Shown here in pieces: positions 5,092-57,066 of a DNA stretch of 64,000 nucleotides. The notes under the pieces were generated by a model, which searched no databases, was not told where the DNA came from, and saw nothing but the letters and a program-made list of their open reading frames with translations. Source of the DNA: a virus (lineage: Duplodnaviria > Caudoviricetes); IMG/VR virus record IMGVR_UViG_3300021400_000103, one strand, 5' to 3'. Numbering within the stretch: position 1 is the first letter of the stretch; the number at the start of each line of letters is the position of its first letter. Both the position numbers and the translations under genes were made by a program.

Positions 5092-5553
5092 ATGACCTCT
5101 ACTTACAATGATATTTATTCAAGATTCCTAATTAAAATACGGGACTATGAGTTTGCGGGATTACCCGAACCCAATGCTACTGAGCAGATGTTAGAATGGC
5201 TTCGCTCTGCTCTAAGCCAGCCGTATATAAATAGAATCTTTGCCACATTCTCGGCAGATGATGAAATTGCCGAACTTGAATATACTCTTACTACTTCCGT
5301 TAATGAATATACAGATAAAAACTTTGTTGAGGAATTACTTAGTTATCAAATGGTAGTTGCTTGGGTCACACCCAAGGTACAGACCACTACCTTACTCCAT
5401 CAGATGGTGACCAATAGTAAGGAGGCTAAGTATTACTCCCAGGCAGCACATATTACCGAGCTTCGAGGTTTATTGGAAGATGCCGAAAACAAAGTTAGAT
5501 CAATGCTAAGGGATAAGGGTTACATCTATAACTCTTACTTGGGTAATGTCTAA
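5092..5553 (+). CDS. Putative head-tail adaptor
   Basis: Helical 153-aa ORF in the head completion position. Confidence 0.5.
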   Translation: MTSTYNDIYSRFLIKIRDYEFAGLPEPNATEQMLEWLRSALSQPYINRIFATFSADDEIAELEYTLTTSVNEYTDKNFVEELLSYQMVVAWVTPKVQTTTLLHQMVTNSKEAKYYSQAAHITELRGLLEDAENKVRSMLRDKGYIYNSYLGNV

Positions 5554-5921
5554 TGGTGCCCTATAAGTATGGTGAGTTTGCAGATATGCAACTCACGGAA
5601 GTAACGGAAATACTACGTAAGCGTATATTCTTTCTGCTTCTTGTAGCAGAAGATCTGGAGACCAAAGAACGGTTTCCTGATGTTAATTTAGAGACGGCTA
5701 ATACTACCCTGCTTTGGAAAATATCAGGACTCAATGAGTTGCTTGGTGAACCTCCAGAGTTGGTAACAGTACTTAGTCTACTCGAAGAAGCCAAATCAAC
5801 GATAAAACATGACTTTGATTTTGCAAAGTATCGCAAGTTAATACTGGACGCTGGTAACGAAATCACCAAGATTTCACCACGCTATAAATCTCAAAGTGCA
5901 AAAATTGCACCTCAAGAATAG
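5553..5921 (+). CDS. Hypothetical protein
   Basis: Translationally coupled ORF (TAATG overlap). Confidence 0.7.
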   Translation: MVPYKYGEFADMQLTEVTEILRKRIFFLLLVAEDLETKERFPDVNLETANTTLLWKISGLNELLGEPPELVTVLSLLEEAKSTIKHDFDFAKYRKLILDAGNEITKISPRYKSQSAKIAPQE

Positions 5922-9831: not shown

Positions 9832-11049
9832 ATGATTACAAGTTTTGATAATCTTGTTATTGATCGAGTTGTAGACGGTTGGTTTGAGTCTAAGTCTACC
9901 GGCGACCTGCTTGCTGTTCTTGATCAGATTTCTAACTTTTCTATCAATACAACTTCTGAGACTAAGGATAAGACAGACGCTCAGGGCGCTCTGCTTAAGA
10001 GATATTTTACTTCCAAGTCAGTAGAGGTTTCTGGTGAGAATGCAACATTCTCTATGAACCTGTTTGCACTTCAGAATGGTGTATCTAAGGTAACAGGAAC
10101 CGATGTTGTCATCCCGAGAATTTATCTCGCAGAGAAAGGTACTGGAACCATCACTCTTCCCGAGGAGCCTATTGAGGGTACATTTAAGCTTTACGGAACA
10201 ACTCCGAATGGCAATGCTGATCTTGAGAAGAAGTATTCTCCGGCTGAGGGAGATGATCCGGAACCGGGCGCTGGTACATATGTCCTTAATGGAACAACTC
10301 TTCAGCTTCCTACCGACGTAACTGATTCTGTACAGATTAAGTATGAGCGTAATGTAGGCGCAGCAGATGTAGCTGCAAGAGTTAACGTACAGGGTGACAA
10401 GTTCCCGAAGGAGTGCAAGGCTACATTCCGTGTACTTTGCTCCGATCTTTGCGAGTCTGAGGAAGTACTTGCACTTTACATCGTATTTGAGAAGTTCCAG
10501 ATGAGTCCTGATTTTGATTGGACTGTAGACACAGAGTCAACTCAGAACTTCTCTGCTACGGCATTCAAGGATTTTCAAAAAGCAGAATACAATCGAGCTG
10601 CATAAGATCCCGTATTCAGTAATGAGTATGAAAAAAAATAACACATTGAATTGCTGGAAAACCGTAAAGCCAAATAAACCACAACGCAATATCTTAAATG
10701 GTATAATCGTGATGGTGACGAAAGTAGAAAAAATTATTTGGATGATATATGGTTAAACCCTAAGTATCGTAAGAATTGGCAATCAGCAACCAAGCCCGAA
10801 AGGGAAGGTTCAACGACTATCCTTATATAGGAGTAGATAACAAGCGATTGGTTATCGAAGTGGTGTGCGCCCGGTTTATGGGTGATGATATAGTCTAGTC
10901 TCTTGATGAAAGTCAGAGGTGTATATACACGAAATAGTGTAGCGAACTATTTTAAATATTATAACGATTGTGCAAAGAATCAGGTTCTGTATTACATCGC
11001 AGTTGCAGATGATACGGATGATTATGACACAAAGCAGTTTGTTGGCTAA
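9832..11049 (+). CDS. Major tail (tube) protein split by group I intron 2; exons 9832-10573 and 10967-11049
   Basis: High-expression codon bias; join gat t|at tgt reads ...AFKDY-CAKNQVLYYIAVADDTDDYDTKQFVG*. Confidence 0.8.
10574..10966 (+). mobile_element. Group I intron 2 (393 nt, no ORF)
   Basis: P1 ggatt/gatcc with U10573-G10606; P10 gcataa/ttgtgc; core ttgaattgctggaa, aatcagcaaccaag, gttcaacgacta, gatatagtct; terminal G10966. Confidence 0.9.
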
Positions 11050-20633: not shown

Positions 20634-20655
20634 ACCATAGGAGGTGAATATATAT

Positions 20656-23600
20656 ATGTCCAATCGCAAAGTAACAATAGAAGCCGATGTCAAAGTAAAT
20701 GAAAAGAAAATCAGGCAGCAGTTTCAGACAGTATCTAAGACTATCGAAAACTTGAAAGGACAAGTCAGAGATATAAACAATTCACCAAAGGGTGGTTCGG
20801 ATGTTGCTCAAAAACTTATCGATAGTATGAAAAAGGCCATTTCTGAAATGGAAGTGATGAAACAACAATATCAAAATGTCTTACAAGGAATTGAATCACA
20901 TAAAATCAGTTCTAAACAATTAAATGATTTTGTTAAAGTATTTGAAGAGCGATTTCAAGTAATTGAAAATAGAATGGCTTCAGTAGAAGAAATGGGTTCA
21001 AAATTAACAAAATCCATGAAAGCCTTTTCATTAGATAAGCTTAACGAGCGTATCAAAATAATTGAAGAGACTGTTAATAAATTCACCACAACAATTGGAG
21101 GTGCTGTCAATGCGCTTTCGACTTTTAATCAAATGGTTGATGTGTCAACCTCAAAGCCAAAAGAGATTACAATCAAAGCCGATACAAGCCAGTTGAAAAG
21201 GGTGGAAGAATTACTTAATAAAATGCAGGACTCTGATAATATTTTAGGTGGAAAATCAGGACTTAAAATAAACACAGCAACTGCAATTAAGAATCTGTCA
21301 GATTTATACAGTAAATATCAAATATTATCTGATGAATTAAACAAGCAAAAAGATCCGCAAGAATTGACTAATATAAAAATACGAATGGCTGAATTAATTT
21401 CTCAAATGGGTAGTTTCATAAATCGTATTTTAGAGTTAAAAAAGATAAGCGGAGATGATATATCCGGTGGAGCAATTGAAAAATTAGGATTCGATATAAA
21501 TGGAATAGATTTTGCAGATTTTTATATTAATATTGAGAACCTTGTAGGAAAAACCTCAACTATATTGTCATCGTTAAGAGACAATATAAAAGACAACATG
21601 GAAATTGCTGTCAATGAGGCTACAACCGAAGTTTCTCAATTCACGTTTAAAAACGGTGGTATACGTATTCCAGTAACAGTTGATGCAAAGTCAAAGCATG
21701 CATTAGAAACAAAATATAATGAAATAGTAAATACATTACAAGAGTATGCAAATGTTCACCCAGTTAATGTTACAATGAGGCTGTTCCCTCTAAATACAAA
21801 CAGAGCAGATGCCACGGAAATAACAAATGAATTAAGAAGAATTCAAACAGACATTTCTAGTGTTACAGACGAAGAACTTCGAACCAAATTAAATTCTTTA
21901 TATGACGATTTGGAATCTCAGTTTCAAAAAGCATTAAATTTAAAGATCAAAGTAGATCTTGGTGATACAGAAGCCAGCTTAAGGCAAAGGATAAAAGAAT
22001 TAAATGAAACCGTAAGAGGTGAAGGATTTACAATTTATCCTAAATTTGAAATTCCAGACGAGGAAGCAGATAAGATCTCCTCAAAATTGGCTGAAATACA
22101 GAAGGATTTTACATTTAGTGCAACATCTGAAATAAAAACAATGGCAGACTCATTAAACAAATTGTTTTCAATTGAAAATGTTGAAGCGTGGAAATCTGCT
22201 TTTGTCAACGCTTTGGATGAGATTAATGGAAAACTTACATCATTTCATAACATGATCAATCCATTGTTGGAATCGATCAAATATACATCTGCAAAGAACA
22301 AATCGGCTACTCCAAATATTGGTGATGTAAATGTCATAATTGAGTTTACAAATGCAATGTCTGCATTACAGAACGCATTAAAAAAACAACAGGAATATAA
22401 GCTTGATATTGATATAAGTCCAGTCTCAGAAAAATTAGATATTTTAAAAGCCACAATTCAGATGATAAGCGGAAAATTAAGTATATTGCCTACCTTGTTA
22501 AATGAGTTAAAGAGTTTTAAAAATATCGATGCTGATTCGTTAATTCAAAATATTCAGAACAGCGTAAGTTCAGAATCTCCGGTTTTAATACCAATAACAC
22601 CAGATTTATCAAATATAGAAGATTTTGTCGAACAAATTCGTGTGGCGCTGTCTGATTCTAAACTAAATATCGGCATAAACAATATACGGTTGAATCAATC
22701 GAAGCAGACGAGTTTAAAAGATCAATTACAAAATGCGGATTATGCAAATTTATTGTATCATCAAATTGACTCAAAACTCGAAGAATCTTCTGGGAATATT
22801 GGTGAAAAACTACGAAAAAAGATATCAGAGTCTTTAGTTGCCGGATTAAGAAACGGTCTAACATCTGTAAGTGAAATGATTGATGTTGGATTAAAAGGCA
22901 CACAATTTGAGAGTATTACCCAACAAATAATCGGCGACAGTGATACTATAGATACAATCAAAAATATTGCTAACGAGGTTGCTATTTCGTTCAAAAAAAC
23001 ACTTGGTGATGATAATTCAGACATTAAAATGCTTTTAAATAGAATCGAAAGCGACATTCAATCGTCAGGAAAAGAAATAACAATACCTATTTCTCCATCG
23101 CAAAATAATGTAAATCAATTTGTTGATAAAGTGCAGTCGATGATTGATTCTCGTAGCGTACATTTAAAAATTAGTGATGAATCCATAAATCAAAATAATC
23201 TTCCATCGGATAATACGATATTCAATGAAACTCCAGTTTCAACTGAATCTACTAATGTTGAGACAAAAGCTCTTCTTTCTAAAAAAGACGTTGTCGAACA
23301 ACTTCGTGCCGAACTTAATTTAACTAAAAAGGCTGCTGAAGATTTATTTAATCAACAGGGCTATACCAAAACAAATAATAAATATCAAATAGAGCAAATT
23401 GCAGTTAACGAATTGATAGCTTCTCTTAAAGAGAAAAAACAAATAGAAGCATCTCAAAATCCCTCTACTACTTCTCCAACTATAAATGCTATGCAATCTG
23501 AAGTCGAGGCTGTTAATCAAGCTGTCGATACAGAAAAGAAAAAGTTTGATGAATTAAAAAATAAGATATCAAAAACTATTCCAAAGGCTATAGAAACCAA

Positions 23601-26600
23601 AAATAAATCCTTTGAAAAAGAGGGAAATTTAGTAGCTAAAATAGTTGATGATGAAATTACTTATTTCGAAGTTTTAAAGGACACTGTTGATGGTGTAACC
23701 GAATCTATAAGCAAACAGGAAAATGTTGCTAAGGATTTGAAACAAAAAAATGAAACACAAAAGCAGAAAAAACAAGATAAACCAACAAGCGATAGAGACA
23801 AGGCGACATTATTGCAAGAACATTATACCGACCTAAGAAGGAGCGCTTATCAATCATTTGGGCAGAAAAGTGACATACAGCAAGAGATGTCAAAATACTA
23901 TTCACAAATAGCCAAAGAATCAGAGATTGCCTATTCTAAAGCAGAGAATAAGGCGAATAGTTTAATTGTTCAGGTAGATAATATTAAACGGTTTGGAAAA
24001 TACACTTCTGACTTTGTTGCCGAATTAGACTCTGCTAGAAATGAATTAGATGCGTTCCTTGAAGAATTGAGATCTGGAGATATTCCATTCGAGACTATTG
24101 ATCAAAGGATTAAAACATTAAGTCAAGATATTGAAGGTACATTATCAAAAAAGGCATTTAGTAGTGTCAAACAAGCTGCTGAAAAATCCTTAACCAATGT
24201 AGGATTAAAAATAGATCAGATTATCGCAAAAAACTCTGCTATGGGAAAGGATTTTGAATCAAGATTTAAAAATCTTCGCAGTGATTTGGGGTTGGCAGAA
24301 AGCGTCGAAGACGTACAAAGAATAATAGCTGAGGTCAATAAGCTTGAATCTGAATTAATTTCAACCGGGAATACTGGCAAAAGTTTTATTGATCAGATTA
24401 AACAAAGAATGAGGGATATAAATACGAAATATATCGCTCAATATTTTAGTTTTCAAGATATTATTAGATACGCAAGGCAAGCAGTTACGAACGTAATCGA
24501 ACTCAATGATGCATTTATAGAATTATCAAAAGTATCTAACACAACAGTAAAAAATCTTGAAGCAGATTTTCAGTCATATGCTGATATCGCAAAAGATATT
24601 GGTGGAACTATAACAGATACAATTAATGCAACTGCCGATTGGGCAAGGATGGGTTACTCTGTTCCAGATTCAAAGCAATTAGCAGAAGTTGCTATGTTAT
24701 ATAAAAATGTCGGAGATGGTATTGATATTACCGCTGCAAACGAATCGCTTATATCTACTCTGCAAGGTTTTCAGATGCAAGCAGATGAGGCAGAACATAT
24801 TGTAGACGTATTCAATGAGGTAGCAAATAACTACGCTATTGGTAGTGGCGGAATTGGTGAAGCTCTTCAACGGTCTGCTGCGTCTTTGAATGCTGCGAAT
24901 ACATCGTTAGAAGAATCTGTTGCATTGGTAACTGCGGCTAATACTGTAGTTCAAAACCCGGAAAGTGTCGGAACAACATTCAAGACATTATCAGCCCGTA
25001 TACGTGGCGCAGATACCGAATTGCAAGAACTTGGAGAAGATGCCGATGAATTTACCGAAACAACATCAAAACTTCAAGGATTAGTTAAATCATTAACTGG
25101 CTTTGATATACTTGAAGCTGATCAGAAAACATATAAATCTATATATGAAATTCTTATAGGTATAGGTAAAGAGTGGCAAAATCTTAGTGATATTGAAAGA
25201 GCATCTCTTGGAGAAGCTCTTGCTGGTAAATTCTATTACCAGGATATGTAGTAATACATATTAAAGAATATATTTAATTGCAGGTAAAACCTAAAGCCTT
25301 ACACCACAATAAAAGGGAAACTATTTTATGATGGTACGAAAGTAGAAACAACGTAAGGATGGTATATGGTTAAAAACCTAAGTACTGCTCTTGTATTTTT
25401 TGAAGAGAAAATGGTAGTTCATGCAACGAAGCACCCTAACGTATTCTGGAGACCGTCCAGTACTTGAGTCGAGGGTGAACGCTCAACGATCATTCCCTAT
25501 GAGGGATTTAGGAAAGGTGTTAATCACCATAAAATAAAGGTGGAAATCCTGAATACCTAAATCATTAGAAGTAGAGCCACAATCGCAAACGGTGGCGGTG
25601 AAAAACCATAAGTCGAAAAGGTATACTCCTACTCTATTTAGAAAGGATGAAGAAATGATCTATTCTCATATGAAAGTATGAGTTTTAATTGGTTATCAAA
25701 AATATGTAATGAAACAAAATAGATGGTCAGATTTGGAAATACAATTATTAAAAGATAATTATGACAGTACTTCCAAAGAAGAAATGTTAGAGTTATTAGC
25801 TCCACGATCATGGAGTTCGATACTTACAAAAGCCAATAAGCTTGGTATAAATAAAAGGTTAAATTGGACTGATTCCGAAGACAAATTATTAAAAAACACA
25901 TACTCAACAACTGATATAAATGAAGTTGTAAGACTATTTCCTGATAGAACAAAACACAGTATAATTGCAAGAGCAATAAAATTAGGATTGAATTCTTTTA
26001 ATCACCCAATTTGGACTGATGAACAAGTTCAATATATAATTGATAATTGGCAAATATTACCAGATGAAATTATAGGTCGAAATATAAATAAAACCAAAAA
26101 TGCAGTCAAAAGAAAACGTAATCTATTGGGATTACATAGGCAGCAAAAAGGTTGTTATTATAATTATGAAAATATATCAAAATATATACGTGGACAAATA
26201 TGGGATTGGAAGAAAAAATCTATGGAAAATTGTGAATATAAATGTGTTATCACTGGAAGTAAAGATTTTGAAATACATCATATTTATCCAGTCAACAAAA
26301 TAATAAAAGATATATATGAAAAATATAACATTGAATACAAGAATTATGAAGATTATTCAAAAGAGGAACTATCTAAAATAGTTACTCTTTTTTGTATTGA
26401 ACAAAATACACACCCATTAGGAGAATGCACAAGAAAAGATTTACACAAATTGTTTCATGAATTATATGGACAATATAATACAACCTATGAACAATGGGAA
26501 CGATTCAAACTCGACATTAAGAAAGGAGTTTATGATAACCATATTAAAATAGATATTGTTGCGTAATATCTAAAATGTAAAAGAAGAGAAACGCAAATAC

Positions 26601-29600
26601 TCTATACGCCGTACTTGATAATATTGAAACTCTCGAAGCTGCATACCAAACAGCCGAAGAATCTGCTGGATCGGCACAACGAGAACAAGAGAATTATCAA
26701 AAGGGTATTACATATTCGATTAATCAGGCCAAGGCAGCGCTTGAAGAGTTGTCTTATGATGCTATAAATTCTGACTTTTTGAAAGGACTTGTTGATTCTG
26801 GTACAAAATTAATTGAAGTATTAGACTTTATCATTGATAAGGTTGGTCTTCTTAAGACCGCCCTCATCGCCATCGGAACCATATGGGGTTCCCAAAAGCT
26901 GGGTTACTGTGTATCAAGTAGGCTCAGGTACCACCCCGCGCCACGGCTAAAACCCGTGGGTAAAACGCAAAGACCATCATTTCGTCAAACAACCGTTTCA
27001 CGAAATGGTGTAGGGTGTACAAGTAAAATCAAACGATGTGGGATATCCCACTCTCGTACCGCTGATATGACTGCGTGGAGCTACGCAGCCTAGGATGTCC
27101 GTGAGGCTCCTACAAGGACTGGAAAGGGTTATGGATCTCACTATAACGGTGTACCGTTATACCTAACCATAACTCCAATCAGCAGGGAAGCGTACTACTC
27201 TCCCACTACTGGTGAGCAAGTGCTGCCCCCAGAGGCTCCCAAGCGGGCGCGGACGAAGTGCTATGCATAAGTACGCGAAGGTAGAGTCCAAACACCGGAT
27301 TTGAGACGTCCGGTAAAAAGCCCCGGCTAGTAGGCATACTGCTCTGTATTACTAGCGGCTTGTGCGAGAGCAGAAATTGATGTTTACAACTAAATAATAA
27401 TGTGATACAATATTTAACAGAAAAAGGTGCTACCGTAAAGCAAGCGGTTAGCCCCTGAAACTATTAGTTATAAATAATAACCGCCGAGTTTTCTCAGGAC
27501 TGTGGGCGGTTATTTTTATGTTCTTTCACGAGTTCAATAAGTAACATCGCTATAGCATAAATAGTTTGAACCATTTTACTGCCCTCCTTTCCGAAGGGCG
27601 AACATAAGAAGCCCTTCTAATGAAGGACTACTCCCCTACCACTTTGCGCCACAGGATCCGCACTGCATGGTTTTCCCGAGGTTCGAAGATGCTAAACCAA
27701 ACATCCCTGTGCTAACCCATCTCTTACCGGCTCCAATCTTCTTCACGTTGGTGGATCCGCAGGTGGGACATTTGGGGACGTTGGTAATATGATTGGTTGT
27801 TTCCGCATTTTTATAATCGTTAATCGCATTACTAAATTCCTTATTAAATTGGTCACTAAATCCCATAAAATTCACCTCCTTAATCTATTATATAATATAC
27901 GCTTCACAAGAGCAATCATTAGCTACTACCTGGAGGAATAAAACAGTTATTTAGCGATAATCCAATTGGAACAAACGAAGATAATATTGGGCTTATGCAA
28001 GCATATGATATGCTTCGTAATAGTAACGGGCAAGGTTTTACAAGCAACGACGGCAGTAAAGTAATCAAGTCTGTTGATGATTTAAAACAGCTCGCAAAGG
28101 AATTGGGTGGATGTGATGACGAGGCATTAAAATTCTTAGACACTTGCGAAAAGATACCGGAAACTATCAAAGAAGGCGAAACGGCGTCTGAAGCATTTGC
28201 AAGAACGTATGGCAGTGGAATAAAGAACCTTGGTTCCAGCATTGCAAAACTTGGTAAAACCATCTTGTCATCTCTTGGTAAAGCAGCTCTTTCTGCTGGT
28301 ATAACATGGTTGGCGACTACCGGCATAGAATTAGTTGCCAAAGGTGTTGGCTGGTTATGGGACGAGGTACTTACCGATAACGCCGAAAGAGAACGTAGAA
28401 CACAGGCGGTAACATCAACAAGCGAGAATATTAAGACATATCAGCAAAATACAGAAGTCGTTGATGACGCTATAAAGAAGTACGAAGAACTTAATAAAAA
28501 GATAAACGAAACCAACATAACGTTTGAAGAAGAAGTTGGGTATCGTAAAGAATTAAACGAGTTACAAAAAAGCTTAAATGAAAAATTTGGCACTGCAGCA
28601 GAAGGACTTGATCTTGTTAATAAGGGATACGAAGGCCAGATTAAAGCGTTAAAAGAACTCCGAAAAGAACAAGCGAGAACTTTCTTGTATGACTCAAAGA
28701 CCGGTGCGTTAATTTCAAAAGATGGAAGTACTGACTTTCAACGTAATCTTGATTTGATAAATCAAAAAGTAGAACATGCTGTAGCCTCACTAAATACTGG
28801 TGCATCTGATACTCTAAACGAATATACCGGAGTTGATATACAATCTATAATAGATAAATATCCGCAGTTGAGACAAGCAATAATTGGAGGAGGTGCAGAA
28901 CTTACAAAATTCCAGTTTTCTCTTGATCCAAATTTAACGCAAAAAGAAGCGGATGAAATCCTAACAAGATTATATGAGGAACTTGACAAACAGTTTCCAG
29001 ATAATCCAGCGGTTCAAGAGTTTAAAAAAACATTGCAAGAATCTCTTAATCCTGGATATGACTCATCTCAGTATTATACCGCTGTTGAGAATTCAAAACA
29101 AACAATACGTAATATTCTTGCCTACAATTCAGACGATGGAGAAGATATATTAACAAAACTTGAAAATGCTACCAATGCGTATAACACAGCTTTGGCTAGA
29201 TATGAAAAAGATAATACGGCTAAGAATAAAGAGGAACTTGATGAAGCCAAGAAAAATCTTGATGAGATATCAAACACCGCAGAAACTATATTGACTGATT
29301 CTAATTCATATGAACATCGATTAATTAGCAGCAGAACTGGTGGTCTCGATGTGTATGGTCAAATGATAAATGAGATCCAGGATAAAAAGAGCGGCGGTGT
29401 TAATGGTCGTATACTTGGAATGTTTGATGGTCGCCTCGAAATGTTTGGAAAGCTTAGAAGTGAGCTTGATAAGATGACAGACGAGGAAAAACTTGCATTA
29501 GAGGTAGAACTTGATGGGAATTCAGAAGTTGTTACGCTCGATAATTTAGATAAATTTATCAATCAGGCAAAGAAAAATGCGGCAAAGAATCCTATTGATT

Positions 29601-32600
29601 TGGAAGTTGGTATCAAAGCATCCGACGCCGTAGACTCTATGGCCGACATGAAGACTGCAGTGGCAAGTCTGGGCGATTTGTACGGTCAGGTTGTTAAACT
29701 TCCGGCTGATGCTACTGATGATGCGAAGTCTGCATTTGGTTTTGCGGATCCTGCTACGCTCAATAGTATTGAGTCTGCGTTCTCAAAGTTCTCAAAAGAG
29801 CTTGAGGACTCTGGAAACAAAACCGGTGCTACTCAAATTAACGAGGCACTTGAAAATCTTGAAACCACAATGCTTAAGTATCCTGGCGAGACAAAGAAAG
29901 CGGAGGATGCAATCGATGAGTTGATAGGTGCATATCTCGATCAAACATCCGCACTTAAGAATCTTAACAAAGAGAATAAGGCGTGGTCAATAGCACAGCT
30001 TGAGGCTATGGGTGTTACCAATGCAAAACAGGTCGTAGAGAGTAGATTAGCAAAAACAAACAAACAGCTCTCAAAATCCTATTCTATTCTTGAAGAGTCT
30101 ATCAAAAATTATAAAGATGCGGTTTCTCGAAATGACGAAGAAACGCAAACCAAAGAACTCGACAAGATGGCTACTGCCCTTAAAGATTTGTACAGCAACA
30201 ACGAATCAAGCGGTATTATCAATGCAGATTTTGTGAAGAATAATCTTGATCTTATACAAGCTGCTTTGGACGATACGTCTGGTAAGTTTAACGACCTTGA
30301 TCGTCTGCTCTCTCATGAGTATGTAACTAAGATTAGAACAGAAACCAACGATGATGAGTTAAGGGTAATGTTATCTGATCTTGATTTAGCGATTCAAAAT
30401 TTTGACGGTTCTTCGATTGATATTGGTACAAGTATGGATGGCGGCCCGATATTTGCAACACTTGAGGCTATTCGCAAGAGTACCAAGATGACGCTTGAAG
30501 AATTCCAACGTCTCGTCTCTGAAGCATCCGGCGGAACAATCGAGGCAAAGGCTACTTATGAGTTAAAAGACACAAACGTTGAGGTTCCTGATTTAACCGC
30601 CATTATGCATGGTAATGCAAGTAACCTTAATGGTGTTAAAAAGATGAAACTGAAGACTCGTATTCCAAAGTGGACATATGAATACACCGGTAAAGGTAGA
30701 GGTGTTACACCCACATACAAACCGTCGAGTTCCAGTTCAACTGGTAGTGGTGGCGGTGGCGGCGGATCCAGTTCTGGTTCAGATAACAAACTCCAAGAGG
30801 ATACAAAAGAAACGTTTGACTGGATTGAGGTAAAAATCAAACGCCTTGAAGAGGCTGTATCCAGATTAGATGAAATTGCTGGTAGTACATACAATAACTG
30901 GACTAAGCGTAATAAGGCTCTGAGAGACGAAATCGGTAAATTAACCGAAGAGATTGAAGCTCAGGAACATGCACAGAAGCGTTATCTGGAAAATGCTAAT
31001 AGTCTGAAAAATTCAAATGTCAACATTAAACCAACTGAGGAAGAATCTGGAAGTAAGAAGCAGTATCAGTATGACCTTGGTAAATATAATGCTGCAGAGA
31101 AAGAATGGAATTCTGGTAAGTATCAAAAACTGATTCGTGAGGGTAAGTTAGGAAAGGATGATATTGAGAGGATTCAAAATAAGTATCTTGTCGAATTAAT
31201 CAACCAATATACAGAATTATACCAGAAATCAGTCGATGCGGGTGTTGCGGCAAACACTTTGCGAGAAACACGAAAAAGTAAGTATGCTGAACAGTTCAAT
31301 AACATTAAAGCCGAATTCGAAGGTATTATCAGTTTATTTGAAGATGCTTCTACTATTATCGACAAACAGATTGAGCGCACTGAAGAACATGGTTATTTTG
31401 TAGCTTCAAACTATTATAAGAAACAGAAGGAACTTACAGAGAAGGTACTCGCAGACCAACGTTCGGAATATGCAAAACTCGTAAAAGCAAGAGATGAAGC
31501 TGTAGAGCAAGGAAAGATTGATAAATACAGTGAAGAATGGTATACCATGACGAATGACATTAATGCCGTAGAAGCTGCTATCAACGACTCCGCTACTGCT
31601 CTTGTCAAGTTTGATAATCAACTTCGTCAGCTCAAGTGGGATGCATTTGACTATGCTCTCGGGCGATTAGATATGATCACCACAGAGGCTGAGTTCCTGA
31701 ATGACCTGCTTAATTCGCAACCGTTATTCGAGGAGGATGGTAACTTTACCGATCGTGGTCAGACTTCTGCTACTCTTATTGGCATCCAGTTTGACACTGC
31801 CATGAAGAAAGCCCAGGAATATGGTAAGGCGATTAAAGAAGTTCAAGCCGATCTTGCGAAAGACCCGAACAACAAAAACTACCTTGAACAGCAAGAAGAA
31901 CTTATCAAAGCACAACAGGATGAGATTAAGAACGCTAAGTCTCTGAAAGAGGCGTATAAGGATCTTGCAAGCGAAGGTATTAATAAGAATCTGGAGTTCC
32001 TTCAGAAGCTAATTGACAAATATAAGGAGAGTCTTTCAGATGCCAAGGATTTAGCATCGTATCAAAAGACGATTAACGAGCAAACTAAAAACATCAGTAG
32101 CTTAGAGCGTCAGCTTGCGGCATATGCTGGGGATGATAGTGAAGAGGCACGAGCGACCATTCAGAAGCTCACGCAGAGTCTCGAGGATGCCCGCAATAAT
32201 CTGCAAGAAACCGAATGGGATAAGTACATATCAGAAACCAATGATATGTTGGATGATATGTATGAAGACTATTCTGAGCTGTTGAATAAACGACTTGATA
32301 ATATCGACGAGTTGTTTACTTGGGGTATCAACGACAACAATAAAAACAGTGAGAACCTTCAGACTACTCTTAACGATGTTGCAACGCAATACGGTTACGA
32401 CATTACATCTAACTTTGACAAGATTATTGGTTCTGGTGGTACTACTATCAGCGACTTTAATCAGACATTCACGGATGCAAGTGCAAGTACCCTTACTGTC
32501 CTCGGTAATATCTATAACACCATTCTTGAAATGGCTAAAGGAACCGCCGTACAAGATAAGGTGATTAACGAGGGTAATACAGGTACGGAAGGCAGTACGG

Positions 32601-33457
32601 ATATTGGTGGTGCCACTGGCAAAATAGCAGCAAATACATCTAAGGTAGAAGCCACCAAGAAAAAGGCTGGCTGGAAAAAAGATAGTATTGGTTGGTGGTA
32701 TCAAAACGCAGACGGGACTTACCCAGAGAAAAAGTGGGAAAAGATCGGAGATAAATGGTATTATTTTAACGATGAAGGCTATATGGTATCCAATGCTTAT
32801 CAGGATGGTTATTGGCTAACTGGAAGCGGTGCCTGGGATGGTCAAAAGAAAGCTGGATGGAAGAAGGATAAAAAGGGCTGGTGGTATCAATATGCAAACG
32901 GATCCTATCCAAAAAAACGGTTCTTACAGATAGATGGCAAGATGTATTACTTTGATGAAAAGGGATACATGGTAACCGGAGAAAAGACTATACAAGGTCA
33001 AAAATACGTCTTTGGTAGCGATGGAGCTGCTATTGATCAGCAGGATTTTACTAAGGTCAAGAAAGGATACGCAACCGGTTCCAGTGGTATCAGATCAAGT
33101 CAAATGGCATGGACGCAAGAAAATGGTTCCGAGATTATCTATCGTGCTACGGATGGTGCAATTCTAACACCACTCTCTCGTGGAGATATGGTATTTACGA
33201 ACGACATGTCCAAGGCACTTTGGAATCTTGCTAAGAATCCGAGCCTTGCAAGATCAAGTATCACTCTTCCATCGGTTAATGGCACTGCACGTACTATCAA
33301 TAATGAAAATGAGATCACCTTGGTTCTTCCGAACGTGACTAATTATGAAGAATTCAAGTCTGCTCTCACTAAAGATCCAAAATTCGTTAACTTTGTCCAG
33401 GCAACAACCATTGGTCAGGCACTGGGAAAAGGACGATTAAATAGAGGTAACTTTTAA
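20656..33457 (+). CDS. Tape measure protein, three exons (20656-25227, 26584-26904, 27923-33457), about 3475 aa spliced
   Basis: TP901-type TMP core (ATADWARMGYS, NEVANNYAI, GTTFKTLSARIRG). Joins read EALAG|KRNANTL and SQKLG|LLPGG, both at codon boundaries and in frame. C-terminal cell-wall-binding repeats. Confidence 0.85.
25228..26583 (+). mobile_element. Group I intron 3 (1356 nt) with an HNH endonuclease
   Basis: P1 ctggt/accag; P10 ttctatt/aagagaa; core aattgcaggtaa, catgcaacgaag, ctcaacgatca, gaaatgatct; terminal G26583. Confidence 0.85.
25709..26566 (+). CDS. Intron-encoded HNH endonuclease with three N-terminal Myb-like W(S/T)xxE repeats
   Basis: RWSDLE, NWTDSE, IWTDEQ repeats; CVITG..EIHHIYP...LHKLFHELYG. 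Confidence 0.8.
   Translation: MKQNRWSDLEIQLLKDNYDSTSKEEMLELLAPRSWSSILTKANKLGINKRLNWTDSEDKLLKNTYSTTDINEVVRLFPDRTKHSIIARAIKLGLNSFNHPIWTDEQVQYIIDNWQILPDEIIGRNINKTKNAVKRKRNLLGLHRQQKGCYYNYENISKYIRGQIWDWKKKSMENCEYKCVITGSKDFEIHHIYPVNKIIKDIYEKYNIEYKNYEDYSKEELSKIVTLFCIEQNTHPLGECTRKDLHKLFHELYGQYNTTYEQWERFKLDIKKGVYDNHIKIDIVA
27383..27411 (+). promoter_or_regulatory. Sigma-A-type promoter inside intron 4 (antitoxin sRNA)
   Basis: TTTACA (27383-88), 17 nt, TACAAT (27406-11), with extended -10 TG. Confidence 0.7.
27418..27518 (+). ncRNA. Putative type I antitoxin sRNA (~100 nt)
   Basis: Own promoter; ends in aataaccgcc/ggcggttatt + T-tract, which overlaps the 3' end of the convergent small ORF. Confidence 0.6.
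27494..27574 (-). CDS. Putative type I toxin peptide, 26 aa (MVQTIYAIAMLLIELVKEHKNNRPQS)
   Basis: RBS aaggagg sequestered in hairpin gcccttcggaaaggagggc; hydrophobic stretch plus basic tail; convergent overlapping sRNA. Confidence 0.6.
   Translation of the reverse strand: MVQTIYAIAMLLIELVKEHKNNRPQS
27636..27866 (-). CDS. Zinc-ribbon protein (76 aa), intron cargo
   Basis: PKCPTCGS...QCGSCGAKW with a Gly-rich hydrophobic centre; RBS aaggaggtg. Confidence 0.8.
   Translation of the reverse strand: MGFSDQFNKEFSNAINDYKNAETTNHITNVPKCPTCGSTNVKKIGAGKRWVSTGMFGLASSNLGKTMQCGSCGAKW
27887..27915 (-). promoter_or_regulatory. Antisense sigma-A-type promoter at the 3' end of intron 4
   Basis: Minus strand TTGCTC, 17 nt, TATAAT, upstream of the zinc-ribbon RBS. 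Confidence 0.65.
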
Positions 33458-55565: not shown

Positions 55566-55846
55566 GGCGTAAAAAATCGGCGTAAAGTTGAAAAAAATAG
55601 GCGTAAGGCTTTGAAAACCGCATAAATAAAGGCACAGGGGATTGGTCAAATGGTATGATAGGGGTCTCCAAAAACAGATGTGAGTATTTTTCAAGCACTA
55701 AAAAATATAACCGCAAGCCCGCATAAATAAAGGGTTTGCGGTTTTTTTGTCTCCTGACATTTTAGGCTTATTTCGGTAATAAGTGGTATCTAATGGTATC
55801 TATTTCGGCGTAAAATGGGCGTAAATTGTCACCCAAATGGGCGTAA
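55566..55846. other. Phage attachment site attP with integrase arm-type repeats
   Basis: Six direct GGCGTAA repeats in two clusters of three (55566, 55579, 55600; 55807, 55818, 55840); two ccgcataaataaagg repeats flanking a tRNA fragment; adjacent to the integrase. Confidence 0.8.
55636..55673 (+). tRNA. 5' half of tRNA-Trp(CCA): att core fragment, not a full tRNA
   Basis: AGGGGAT-TG-GTCA-AATGGTA-TGAT-A-GGGGT-CTCCAAA gives acceptor 5' strand, D arm and anticodon loop; no T arm or 3' acceptor strand follows. Confidence 0.8.
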
Positions 55847-55902
55847 GTCTGTTGACAAGCATTTCTTCGTTATGTTATAGTCACATTAGAGGAGGTGATA
55901 TA

Positions 55903-57066
55903 ATGAAGAAACTTGCAAAACTTCCAAGAGGAGAAGGCAGTTTTTCCCGTAGAGCGAATGGATCTCTGGAGTATAAAAAGTATGTTCATGTTAACAACGG
56001 CACTATCCGCACTGTCGTGTACGGTAAAACCGAACGTGAGTGCATGGAGAAGATGCGTGAAAAGGAAGCGGCCATAAAAGAGCGGAGTAAGTTCACCTCT
56101 GATCAGTTACTCGGCGAAGCTCTTATCGTATGGATTAACAAAGTTAAGAAACCTACATTAAAGAAGCAGTCCTATGACAGACTTATAGGTGCAGCCCGTC
56201 AGATTGGTAAGTCAGATATTGGCCGCCGGTACTATAGCAAGATCGACACCATGGAACTTCAGCACTACATATATCATCTTCTTGAGTTGAGGTATGCATG
56301 GGGTACGATCAAGAAATCATATGATCTGCTCCGGGCCTTCTATCGCTACATGTCTATAAAGGAACAGTTTCGTGATCCAATGGCGCTGGTTGTTATGCCA
56401 AGGAAAGACAACGTCAAGGTAGATAGTCGGCAGATAGAATGGTTTGAAGAGGAAGATATCCAGAGGTTTACCGAAGCCTGTGATGCAAGGTGGAATACTG
56501 GTCGACTAAAGAATAAATACGCCTATGCTATCGCCGCCAATATATACCTCGGATTACGTGGTGGGGAACTTCTCAGTTTAAAATGGAAGGATGTAGACTT
56601 CGACAGAAACACAATATACGTATCAAAGACTTTGATTGAATACCGGGATAAGAACGGTAAGACTAAATTTGAAGTGCAGGAATCTACAAAGAGAGATAAG
56701 AACAGATATGTACCGATGAATTCAAAGGCCAAATCCTTCATGTTAAAGCATCTGGAGGAGAGTGAGTTTACGGATCCAGAAGACTTTGTGATATCAACGT
56801 CTAACCGTAGAACTACCACATTGAAGAATCTGTCGGACACTATCCGCAATATAGAGGAAGAAGCCGACACAACGGTACGTACTTACAATACGCATATCTT
56901 GCGTCATACATGCGCATCGCTGTACTTCAGAGCTGGCGTACCGGTCGAGACTATTTGTGCTATCCTCGGTAATACTCGTGAAGTATGTGAAAAAACATAT
57001 GTCCACTTCGCAGAGGAACAGCTCAAGAACGCTGCATCCAAAATTGTGCCGATTATTGAATTGTAG
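55903..57066 (+). CDS. int: Phage integrase (tyrosine recombinase)
   Basis: RGEGS arm-binding N-terminus; GLRGGELL, HILRH and terminal TY; promoter TTGACA (55852) .. TATAGT (55876). Confidence 0.9.
   Translation: MKKLAKLPRGEGSFSRRANGSLEYKKYVHVNNGTIRTVVYGKTERECMEKMREKEAAIKERSKFTSDQLLGEALIVWINKVKKPTLKKQSYDRLIGAARQIGKSDIGRRYYSKIDTMELQHYIYHLLELRYAWGTIKKSYDLLRAFYRYMSIKEQFRDPMALVVMPRKDNVKVDSRQIEWFEEEDIQRFTEACDARWNTGRLKNKYAYAIAANIYLGLRGGELLSLKWKDVDFDRNTIYVSKTLIEYRDKNGKTKFEVQESTKRDKNRYVPMNSKAKSFMLKHLEESEFTDPEDFVISTSNRRTTTLKNLSDTIRNIEEEADTTVRTYNTHILRHTCASLYFRAGVPVETICAILGNTREVCEKTYVHFAEEQLKNAASKIVPIIEL

What the first reader, a model, noticed from the sequence alone, without database searches (positions are those of the whole stretch)
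26905..27922. Group I intron used as a cargo vehicle inside the tape measure gene
Seen: the TMP looks broken here, with antisense genes in the gap, but the gap is a complete group I intron. It has P1 with U26904-G, P10 (agtag/ctact), P4 (gctgat/atcagc), P7 (gaggctc/gagtcc) and P9, and its terminal G27922 is the last base of a TAG after which the TMP frame reopens (SQKLG|LLPGG). About 525 nt of cargo (~27375-27900) sits in a peripheral 3' loop that can be closed by cttgtg (27359-64) / cacaag (27905-10). The cargo has its own promoters and no nuclease: a zinc-ribbon gene, a small toxin-like ORF and a convergent sRNA. Known: group I introns normally carry homing endonucleases, or IS elements in IStrons. 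Inference: the ribozyme creates a neutral landing pad for accessory or defence genes inside an essential virion gene. The cargo could be expressed from the silent prophage and spliced out of the late mRNA.
Basis: partly seen in the sequence, partly recalled or inferred. Interest (0 to 1): 0.93.

Follow-up and report, generated by a model that had tools for sequence, protein, structure and literature searches.

The report
Gene-carrying intron in tape-measure gene
The tail tape-measure gene of this gut phage is interrupted by a 1-kb self-splicing (group I-type) intron that carries a small zinc-ribbon gene and a toxin-antitoxin-like cassette instead of a homing nuclease, and related phages have the same intron at the same site with different extra genes; splicing has not been shown on RNA.

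Summary
Window 26905-27922 interrupts one tape-measure (TMP) reading frame. Removing it joins ...QKLG|LLPGG... in frame.

I found ten complete homologues and two truncated ones, all in phage TMP genes after ...CTGGGT. In the ten complete ones:
- the intron ends in G;
- the guide sequence pairs with that phage's own 3' exon, which differs between phages;
- the exons join in frame.

On a 9-sequence alignment, 96.6% of cells pair and 63 of 99 pairs show compensatory change, against 8-13 in slid controls. The helix that closes the cargo loop also covaries. The Rfam group I model gives no hit.

The "cargo vehicle" reading is partly supported:
- The antisense zinc-ribbon gene is not swappable. Every member that reaches that far has it, under purifying selection.
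- The variable parts are small peptide/sRNA cassettes and a PemK toxin pair in the P8 and P9.2 loops. A 93%-identical core (L023) carries different cargo.

Splicing, cargo expression and any defence role are untested. A sense-strand terminator inside the intron is unexplained.

This scan has reported gene-laden TMP introns on other DNA before, so this is a new variant of a known kind.

The parts
26584..26904 (+). TMP exon 2. Its last six bases, CUGGGU (26899-26904), form the 5' strand of P1.
   Evidence: Frame and homology to the uninterrupted TMPs of phage Sundance and P0016. The same CTGGGT precedes the intron in all members.
26905..27922 (+). The intron (IVS2), 1018 nt, ending in G27922.
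   Evidence: In-frame joining, P1/P10, and homologues.
26917..26927 (+). Internal guide sequence. AGUAG pairs with the 3' exon (P10) and GCUCAG pairs with the 5' exon (P1).
   Evidence: Read directly from the sequence. The P10 part covaries with each phage's 3' exon in ten members.
26928..27020 (+). P2 domain, with two inner hairpins.
   Evidence: Helices 2-5: 12 of 21 pairs have compensatory change.
27038..27051 (+). Variable hairpin (P2.1), absent in L010 and L012.
   Evidence: Alignment A2.
27059..27063 (+). P3 5' strand, CCGCU. It pairs with AGCGG at 27242-27246.
   Evidence: Helix 6, with two compensated positions.
27069..27112 (+). Two extra hairpins between P3 and P4 (27069-90 and 27091-112).
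   Evidence: Helices 7-9: 13 of 17 pairs are compensated. The position is unusual for group I introns.
27119..27182 (+). P4 (CUGG 27119-22 with UCAG 27179-82), flanked by A-rich joints (AAA and CAA) and enclosing P5 (27126-34 with 27167-75).
   Evidence: Helices 10-11. P4 never varies; P5 has 7 of 9 pairs compensated.
27185..27228 (+). P6.
   Evidence: Helix 12: 5 of 9 pairs compensated.
27232..27238 (+). P7 5' strand, GAGGCUC, with a bulged A. It pairs with GAGUCC at 27284-27289.
   Evidence: Helix 13: 4 of 6 pairs compensated. L009 adds a further variant.
27248..27277 (+). P8. It is short here, but holds a 423-nt cassette in L023 and a similar one in L009.
27293..27358 (+). P9 (27293-314) and P9.1 (27323-358). 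The loop CUGCUCU (27339-45) can pair with AGAGCAG (27367-73).
   Evidence: Helices 15-17. The loop pairing reads CUACUCU/AGAGUAG in other members.
27359..27364 (+). 5' strand of the cargo-closing helix (P9.2), CUUGUG. It pairs with CACAAG at 27905-27910.
   Evidence: Five variants, each with matching partner strands, across members.
27383..27519 (+). Sense-strand small RNA unit: promoter TTTACA-17-TACAAT (27383-27411) followed by an intrinsic terminator (27479-27519).
   Evidence: The unit, promoter boxes included, is conserved in L023 and L009 at 86% mean column identity.
27494..27574 (-). Small ORF of 26 aa (MVQTIYAIAMLLIELVKEHKNNRPQS). Its ribosome-binding site lies in a hairpin, and its 3' end overlaps the shared terminator.
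   Evidence: Cassettes of the same design, with longer peptides, occur in L009, L023 and L018.
27636..27866 (-). Zinc-ribbon protein gene (76 aa from ATG 27866; 79 aa if it starts at the GTG at 27875).
   Evidence: Homologues P0001-P0011. Present in all members that reach that far. Under purifying selection.
27887..27915 (-). Candidate promoter of the zinc-ribbon gene (TTGCTC-17-TATAAT), overlapping the intron's 3' tail.
   Evidence: Read from the sequence. It falls below the threshold of the scan, so it is weak.
27905..27922 (+). 3' strand of P9.2 (CACAAG), a 12-nt tail and the terminal G27922.
27923..33457 (+). TMP exon 3. Its first bases, CUACU, form P10.

Best explanation
Window 26905-27922 is a self-splicing intron of group I type inside one long tape-measure gene of a large, probably temperate phage of gut Firmicutes.

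**Inferred mechanism**
1. The first ~470 nt fold into the ribozyme.
2. The guide sequence holds exon 2's last bases (CUGGGU, with U26904 paired to G26922).
3. A guanosine attacks at 26904/26905.
4. The distant 3' splice site is brought in by a long-range helix around the cargo (27359-64 with 27905-10), by pairing of the guide with exon 3 (P10), and by the terminal G27922.
5. The exons are ligated to read ...QKLG-LLPGG....

**What the peripheral loops hold**
- A fixed antisense zinc-ribbon gene sits next to the 3' splice site.
- Swappable small modules sit beside it. Here that is one peptide/small-RNA cassette of type I toxin-antitoxin design.
- These genes have host-type promoters of their own, so they could be expressed independently of late transcription.

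**Shown:** boundaries, frame, RNA structure by covariation, conservation of the zinc-ribbon gene, and cargo differences between relatives.

**Inferred:** catalysis, cargo expression, and what the cargo does.
For: **It interrupts a single gene**
- The TMP frame is interrupted and restored exactly.
- Uninterrupted relatives run through this place. P0016 matches both sides. P0014, P0032 and P0074 continue in frame.
- Many homologues' 5' parts stop exactly at ...KLG, where the intron begins with TAA.

**Splice-site logic recurs**
- Twelve homologous introns (ten complete) were found by pattern scans and protein contexts, all in TMP genes after CTGGGT.
- All ten complete ones end in G and join in frame.
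- Each has 4-12 bp of P10 to its own 3' exon, and those exons differ between phages.

**The RNA structure covaries**
- 96.6% of cells are paired, against 33-40% in slid controls.
- 63 of 99 pairs show compensatory change, against 8-13 in slid controls.
- 0 of 500 shuffles reach these values.
- P3 and P7 cross as in group I introns, and P7 has a bulged A and four compensated pairs.
- The closing helix has five variants, each with matching partner strands.

**Cargo**
- The zinc-ribbon gene is in all 11 members that reach that far. It shows 963 synonymous against 710 non-synonymous codon differences.
- Cargo differs on a 93%-identical core.
- The sRNA unit is conserved together with its promoter boxes.

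**Lifestyle and precedent**
- An integrase gene lies at 55837-57066.
- One member is in the genome assembly of Eubacterium ruminantium ATCC 17233.
- Group I introns in TMP genes are established (PMC2504315).
Against: - No RNA or biochemical evidence.
- The Rfam group I model gives no hit at E<=10, even on the core alone. It scores another intron of this window at 72 bits.
- Two covarying hairpins lie between P3 and P4, where canonical group I introns have only a short joint. Membership in a known subclass is therefore unproven.
- P1 and P4 never vary, so covariation says nothing about them.
- An intrinsic terminator on the sense strand (27479-27519) lies between the ribozyme and the 3' splice site. 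It would stop an ordinary polymerase.
- The small ORF is only 26 aa, with a 15-residue hydrophobic run. Its sRNA homologues in L009 and L023 have no peptide partner, so this cassette may be decayed.
- The promoter of the zinc-ribbon gene is weak by consensus.
Confidence: 0.75

Rival explanations
1. The zinc-ribbon gene is the intron's own maintenance or mobility factor, not cargo. It would be a new kind of intron-encoded protein that helps homing, folding or retention, and only the small cassettes would be passengers.
For: It is in all 11 members that reach that far, always antisense and next to the 3' splice site, and under purifying selection. It also abuts the 3' TMP part behind a different 5' RNA element in L024 and L025.
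Against: No nuclease or maturase family or fold was found. The N-terminal domains vary or are missing; this window's copy has only the C-terminal ribbon. The same family also occurs away from TMP genes (L029). Intron-encoded proteins of phage group I introns normally lie on the sense strand (from my own knowledge, not checked here).
Confidence: 0.25
2. The intron is spliced in trans or only inefficiently. The internal terminator ends the 5' transcript (exon 2 plus ribozyme). A second transcript carries the 3' tail and exon 3, and the two meet through the closing helix and P10.
For: A strong terminator lies on the sense strand inside the intron, and L009, L023 and L018 have several. Covarying long-range pairings exist that could hold two RNAs together.
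Against: No convincing sense promoter lies downstream of the terminator; the only candidate is a 9/12 match at 27765-27793. The compact members have no such terminator. In phage SPbeta the late genes are made as one operon by the phage's own polymerase YonO, which lacks the domain used for hairpin termination (PMC5467207), so read-through is plausible if this phage has such an enzyme.
Confidence: 0.1
3. There is no splicing. The TMP is made as separate polypeptides, and the conserved RNA is a relic or has another role.
For: No RNA data, and no Rfam hit. Many database TMP fragments end at this place.
Against: P10 changes together with each 3' exon, and all ten junctions are in frame. Neither is expected without selection for exact exon joining. 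Exon 3 has no start codon with a ribosome-binding site near 27923; the first ATG is at 27995. Uninterrupted homologues exist.
Confidence: 0.07

Closest known systems
Group I introns in tape-measure genes of Bacillus cereus-group prophages (TMP-IVS1, 2, 3a, 3b; Tourasse and Kolsto 2008, PMC2504315)
   Same: Self-splicing introns in frame within prophage TMP genes. P1 and P10 are adapted to the insertion site. Some copies lack a homing endonuclease and spread passively with the phage.
   Different: Those introns are of class IA1 or IA2, and carry a homing endonuclease gene, its remains, or nothing. The intron here is missed by RF00028 and has extra hairpins between P3 and P4. It also has a conserved antisense zinc-ribbon gene and swappable cassettes.
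IStrons (CdISt1, BcISt1 and relatives; Tourasse, Stabell and Kolsto 2014, PMC4227781)
   Same: The ribozyme is at the 5' end. The foreign genes lie in a terminal loop near the 3' end, downstream of P9.x, followed by a short 3' tail. The load varies in size.
   Different: IStrons carry IS200/IS605-type transposase genes, have IA2 ribozymes with P7.1 and P7.2, and sit at many sites. Here there is no transposase, the core layout differs, there is a second cargo site in P8, and the insertion site is a single one in TMP.
Phage group I introns with homing endonuclease ORFs in peripheral loops (T4 td, nrdB, sunY; from my own knowledge)
   Same: A protein gene is looped out of P6, P8 or P9, so the ribozyme still folds.
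   Different: Those ORFs are sense-strand nucleases that drive homing. Here the ORFs are antisense, have their own promoters, and no nuclease is recognisable.
Type I toxin-antitoxin pairs with 3' overlap on Bacillus prophages (txpA/RatA, bsrG/SR4; from my own knowledge)
   Same: A small hydrophobic peptide with a basic tail and a convergent small RNA that shares a bidirectional terminator. The ribosome-binding site is hidden in a hairpin.
   Different: There is no sequence relation and no Rfam match. The peptide here is shorter (26 aa). Toxicity is untested.

Membership tests
Group I intron | The 5' splice site follows a U that forms a U-G wobble in P1 with an internal guide sequence. | tested here: met
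   U26904 pairs with G26922. CUGGGU/GCUCAG is identical in all members, so it is invariant and gets no covariation support.
Group I intron | The intron ends in a guanosine (omega G). | tested here: met
   G27922 here. All ten complete members end in G.
Group I intron | P10 forms between the guide sequence and the 3' exon. | tested here: met
   4-12 bp in each of ten members, changing together with the differing 3' exons.
Group I intron | A core of P3-P8, with P3 and P7 crossing (pseudoknot) and a P4-P6 domain. | tested here: met
   P3, P5, P6, P7 and P8 all have compensated pairs, and P4 is invariant. Two extra hairpins between P3 and P4 are atypical.
Group I intron | A guanosine-binding P7 with a bulged base, plus conserved joints (J8/7, and A-rich J4/5 and J5/4). 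| tested here: inconclusive
   P7 has a bulged A and a fixed G-C pair. AAGGUAGAGUCC and CAGAGGCUCC resemble the classic S and R elements, but I made that comparison from memory of the Tetrahymena intron, not with a tool.
Group I intron | A match to the curated covariance model (Rfam RF00028). | tested here: not met
   No hit at E<=10 on 25000-28600, on 26880-27400, or on the compact L004 core. The model also misses IVS1 of this gene and its relatives.
Group I intron | Guanosine-dependent self-splicing. | not testable with these tools
   No RNA data were obtainable.
IStron | An IS200/IS605- or IS607-type transposase component at the 3' end. | tested here: not met
   No transposase family in any cargo ORF.
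IStron | An IA2 ribozyme with P7.1 and P7.2 (PMC4227781). | tested here: not met
   P7, P3' and P8 follow one another directly.
Mobile group I intron with homing endonuclease | An ORF of a known homing endonuclease family. | tested here: not met
   The zinc-ribbon protein gives only weak, generic zinc-ribbon hits, and its model finds no PDB fold match.
Type I toxin-antitoxin system | A small membrane-type peptide gene with an overlapping antisense small RNA. | tested here: inconclusive
   The layout fits. The peptide is short, and homologous sRNA units in L009 and L023 lack a peptide partner.

The most novel reading that the evidence does not exclude
Gut Firmicutes phages maintain a dedicated family of group I-type introns at one site of the tape-measure gene, and it works as a modular gene holder. 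A fixed antisense zinc-ribbon gene anchors the 3' end. The P8 and P9.2 loops are each shut by a covarying helix and accept and exchange self-contained cassettes: toxin-antitoxin modules here, and whole defence islands in sister elements. These accessory genes ride inside an essential late gene, are expressed from their own promoters, and are removed from the late mRNA by splicing.
Probability: 0.45. Interest if true: 0.8.

Novelty: new variant of a known kind. Interest (0 to 1): 0.62.

Why it matters
Group I introns in phages are usually seen as selfish elements that carry at most a homing nuclease. Here the intron's outer loops hold other genes, and these differ between close relatives while the ribozyme and the splice sites are kept.

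If splicing is confirmed, this shows a way for phages to store accessory, addiction or defence genes inside an essential gene. There they are hard to lose and cost the virion protein nothing.

It also gives gene callers a concrete reason why giant tape-measure genes look broken in gut viromes. And it provides a compact, testable ribozyme (about 930-1020 nt) whose 3' splice site is recruited across hundreds of bases by covarying pairings.

Tried and rejected
- **Rfam.** Gathering and E-value modes on the window, the core alone, L002, L004, L024 and L025 gave no group I hit for this element.
- **Annotated phage records.** The DNA search found nothing for the intron and flanks. The protein search found nothing for the start of exon 3.
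- **The search for related loci.** The start of exon 3 gave no relatives in viral contigs.
- **Whole genome.** Not held for this window.
- **Pattern hits L013, L016, L017 and L020.** These proved to be chance matches with no core.
Rejected in favour of P3 plus CUGG/UCAG.
- **First copy of GAGGCUC (27104-10) as the P7 strand.** Rejected, because only the second copy covaries with GAGUCC.
- **Group II intron.** Considered because the start reads UGUGUA. Dropped for lack of any domain V-like element or Rfam hit, and because the P1/P10/terminal-G logic fits group I.
- **Zinc-ribbon protein.** The structure model (pLDDT 80.5) gave no PDB match at E<=0.001. The atlas search returned only unnamed clusters.
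- **L024 and L025.** They share the zinc-ribbon gene but not this ribozyme by blastn, so I did not count their defence genes as cargo of this family.
Full report
**The locus**

The window is part of a large phage. It has virion genes, a tyrosine integrase at 55837-57066, and nrdD and dUTPase genes.

The tape-measure (TMP) gene is in three pieces:
- Exon 1 is 20644-25227 and carries the PhageMin_Tail domain.
- Exon 2 is 26584-26904.
- Exon 3 is 27923-33457.

Phage Sundance has an uninterrupted TMP that runs straight from the exon 1 match into the exon 2 match. The 3817-aa protein P0016 matches exon 2 at 74% identity and then exon 3. The pieces therefore belong to one protein.

The finding concerns the second gap, 26905-27922.

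**Check of the observation**

The gap starts after U26904 and ends with G27922. Joining the flanks gives ...GSQKLG|LLPGGIKQLF... in frame.

Eleven contiguous bases of the intron (26917-26927, AGUAGGCUCAG) are complementary to the ligated junction, with wobbles. GCUCAG pairs with exon 2's CUGGGU, including U26904 with G26922. AGUAG pairs with exon 3's CUACU.

The 5' 470 nt are richer in G+C than the surroundings and fold better than shuffles (z = -3.65).

Rfam finds a group I intron elsewhere in the window (10606-10918, 72 bits). It finds nothing here, even at E<=10 on the core alone.

**Relatives**

A pattern built from three conserved core motifs found one viral contig, L004. More patterns found others. 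Protein look-ups of zinc-ribbon homologues added more.

In all there are twelve homologous introns. Ten are complete, L019 and L023 are cut by contig ends, and two further loci (L014, L015) are duplicates of L010 and L011. One lies in the genome assembly of Eubacterium ruminantium ATCC 17233. Four other pattern hits were chance matches.

Every true member lies in a TMP gene directly after ...CTGGGT.

In the ten complete members:
- the intron is 932-2052 nt and ends in G;
- the exons join in frame;
- the bases 5' of GCUCAG pair with that phage's own 3' exon.

The P10 pairings are:

| Member(s) | Guide sequence | 3' exon |
|---|---|---|
| Window, L005 | AGUAG | CUACU |
| L004 | UUACAA | UUGUAA |
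| L010, L012 | AAAUAG | CUAUUU |
| L011 | UCCAAAUAG | CUGUUUGGA |
| L018 | UGUAAUCUAUGAG | CUUUUAGAUUACA |

This co-change of guide and exon is what selection for exact exon joining predicts. It is hard to explain otherwise.

The intron-less protein P0014 reads ...GAKNL-NLFGYKNNDGL.... That is close to the predicted L010 junction ...GAKNLG-LFNTKDDGT....

**RNA structure**

I used a 9-sequence alignment (A2). I took the RNAalifold helices, dropped two short spurious ones, and added P7 as a crossing helix.

| Measure | Structure | Controls |
|---|---|---|
| Cells paired | 96.6% | 33-40% (slid) |
| Pairs with compensatory change | 63 of 99 | 8-13 (slid) |
| Shuffles reaching these values | n/a | 0 of 500 |

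The layout, in order:
- P1.
- A branched P2.
- A dispensable hairpin (P2.1).
- P3: CCGCU 27059-63 with AGCGG 27242-46.
- Two extra hairpins: 27069-90 and 27091-112.
- P4: CUGG 27119-22 with UCAG 27179-82, flanked by AAA and CAA.
- P5.
- P6.
- P7: GAGGCUC 27232-38 with GAGUCC 27284-89, with a bulged A.
- P8.
- P9.
- P9.1.

P7 has compensated variants in three other members: GAGGUCA/UGAUCC in L005, GAGGCCA/UGGUCC in L009 and CAGGCUC/GAGUCG in L011.

The two hairpins between P3 and P4 are not a textbook feature. They may be why the Rfam model fails. That model also misses IVS1 of this gene and its relatives, so its silence is weak evidence.

**How the far 3' end is held**

Right after P9.1 comes CUUGUG (27359-64), which pairs with CACAAG (27905-10) 12 nt before the terminal G.

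At the homologous places other members have CUUCUG/CAGAAG (L005, L021), UUUGUG/CACAAA (L022), CUUGCG/CGCAAG (L018) and CUUCCAA/UUGGAAG (L004). The helix spans 440-1500 nt of cargo.

The P9.1 loop (CUGCUCU) can also pair with AGAGCAG just inside the helix. Other members have CUACUCU/AGAGUAG there.

Where P8 carries an insert (L009, L023), a 13-14-position helix with one or two mismatches closes it.

**The cargo**

*Zinc-ribbon gene (27636-27866, antisense)*
- It is present in all 11 members that extend that far, always next to the 3' splice site.
- Its C-terminal 47 codons show 963 synonymous against 710 non-synonymous codon differences, and third-position changes dominate. It is a real protein gene.
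- Longer forms add an N-terminal zinc ribbon and a helical middle part. The window's copy has only the C-terminal ribbon.
- No family, defence model or solved fold matches.
- The family also occurs outside TMP genes (L029).
- Its role is unknown. I rate [quoted passage not shown] above "intron maintenance factor".

*Plus-strand small-RNA unit (27383-27519)*
- It has a strong promoter and a terminator.
- It is conserved in L023 and L009, promoter boxes included.

*Small antisense ORF (27494-27574)*
- It encodes 26 aa.
- Its ribosome-binding site is buried in a hairpin.
- Its last codons overlap the shared terminator.
- Cassettes of the same design with 31-39-aa peptides sit in P8 of L009 and L023 and in P9.2 of L023 and L018. 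The design is that of type I toxin-antitoxin pairs.
- The window's copy may be decayed.

**Cargo varies on a fixed chassis**

Compared with the window, L023:
- is 93% identical over 397 nt of exon end and core;
- then has 423 nt where the window has a 28-nt P8;
- is then 86.5% identical over 245 nt;
- then has about 430 nt where the window has 112 nt.

L009 carries a peptide/sRNA cassette in P8, plus an sRNA unit and a PemK toxin with a small upstream ORF on the sense strand. L004, L005 and L010 carry only the zinc-ribbon gene. This is direct support for swappable loads.

In L024 and L025 the same zinc-ribbon gene abuts the 3' TMP part. The 5.5-7.4-kb gap holds a ThsB-like TIR gene or an NsnA-like gene plus an HD-domain gene. 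Its 5' RNA element is not similar by blastn. It does have a 12-nt stretch complementary to the start of the 3' exon. I report this as a sister case, not as cargo of this family.

**Open problems**
- There is no RNA evidence.
- The sense-strand terminator at 27479-27519 lies between the ribozyme and the 3' splice site. Either the late polymerase reads through it or the two halves meet in trans.
- In SPbeta, a phage with related tail genes, the late operon is made as one transcript by the phage polymerase YonO, which lacks the flap domain (PMC5467207). I saw no such gene in the window ORFs I scanned, and the rest of the genome is not held.

**Comparison with what is known**
- Group I introns in prophage TMP genes have been described (PMC2504315).
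- IStrons have the same end-loaded layout but carry transposases and IA2 ribozymes (PMC4227781). That paper also notes that group I introns elsewhere can hold other genes.
- Full-text searches for group I introns with defence or type I toxin-antitoxin cargo in phages found nothing relevant.
- This scan has already reported gene-laden TMP introns on other DNA. A later check there rated the bold reading low for lack of RNA data and of a model hit.
- What this case adds: a compact member; covariation of P10, P7 and the closing helix; the fixed zinc-ribbon gene; and a near-identical core with different cargo.

**Verdict**

This is a new variant of a known kind. Confidence in the main explanation is 0.75.

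Noticed in passing
window 25228-26583: First intervening sequence of the same TMP gene (1356 nt). It joins ...ALAG|KRNANTLY... in frame and holds an HNH-like ORF (25709-26566; PHROG HNH endonuclease and D5-like regulator hits). Homologous elements interrupt the TMP of MT835469 twice. Rfam RF00028 does not detect it.
   Followed up: partly
window 10606-10918: The only Rfam group I hit in the window (72 bits). It starts right after a virion structural protein ORF (9832-10605). Earlier notes of this scan count five introns in late genes of this phage.
   Followed up: no
L024 10001-15470 and L025 10001-17404: In two other gut phage contigs the TMP is split by 5.5-7.4 kb. The gap holds a ThsB-like TIR gene (E 3e-39), or an NsnA-like gene plus an HD-domain gene, together with HTH genes and small ORFs. 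The same zinc-ribbon gene lies next to the 3' TMP part. The 5' RNA element is unrelated by blastn, but its ACUCUCCAACAG is complementary to the start of the 3' exon.
   Followed up: partly
L023 589-1011 and 1252-1679; L009 P8 insert (original coordinates about 5350-5690); L018 1050-1960: A family of self-contained cassettes. Two convergent, similar promoters form an inverted repeat. One drives a roughly 100-nt RNA. The other drives a long-leader mRNA for a 31-39-aa hydrophobic peptide ending in ...KNNR, encoded in the shared terminator. They behave like movable modules, sitting in different intron loops.
   Followed up: partly
window 27479-27519: A bidirectional intrinsic terminator lies inside the intron on the sense strand of an essential late gene. 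Its read-through or bypass is unexplained.
   Followed up: partly
window 27069-27112: Two covarying hairpins lie between the P3 and P4 strands, an unusual place for peripheral helices in group I introns. I did not compare them with a curated database of group I subclasses.
   Followed up: no
window 32700-33300 (TMP exon 3, residues about 1600-1700): The C-terminal part of the TMP carries choline-binding / cell-wall-binding repeats (Pfam Choline_bind_1 and Choline_bind_3).
   Followed up: no
L025 3754-5102 and L026 62-1410: GIY-YIG and NUMOD1 ORFs lie just downstream of the 3' TMP part in these contigs. This may be another intron or a free-standing homing endonuclease.
   Followed up: no
L004 4222-5040 versus window 25228: L004's TMP is uninterrupted at the IVS1 site (...EFIAGKNRANIAAS...) but carries the IVS2-type intron. 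The two introns are therefore gained and lost independently.
   Followed up: partly
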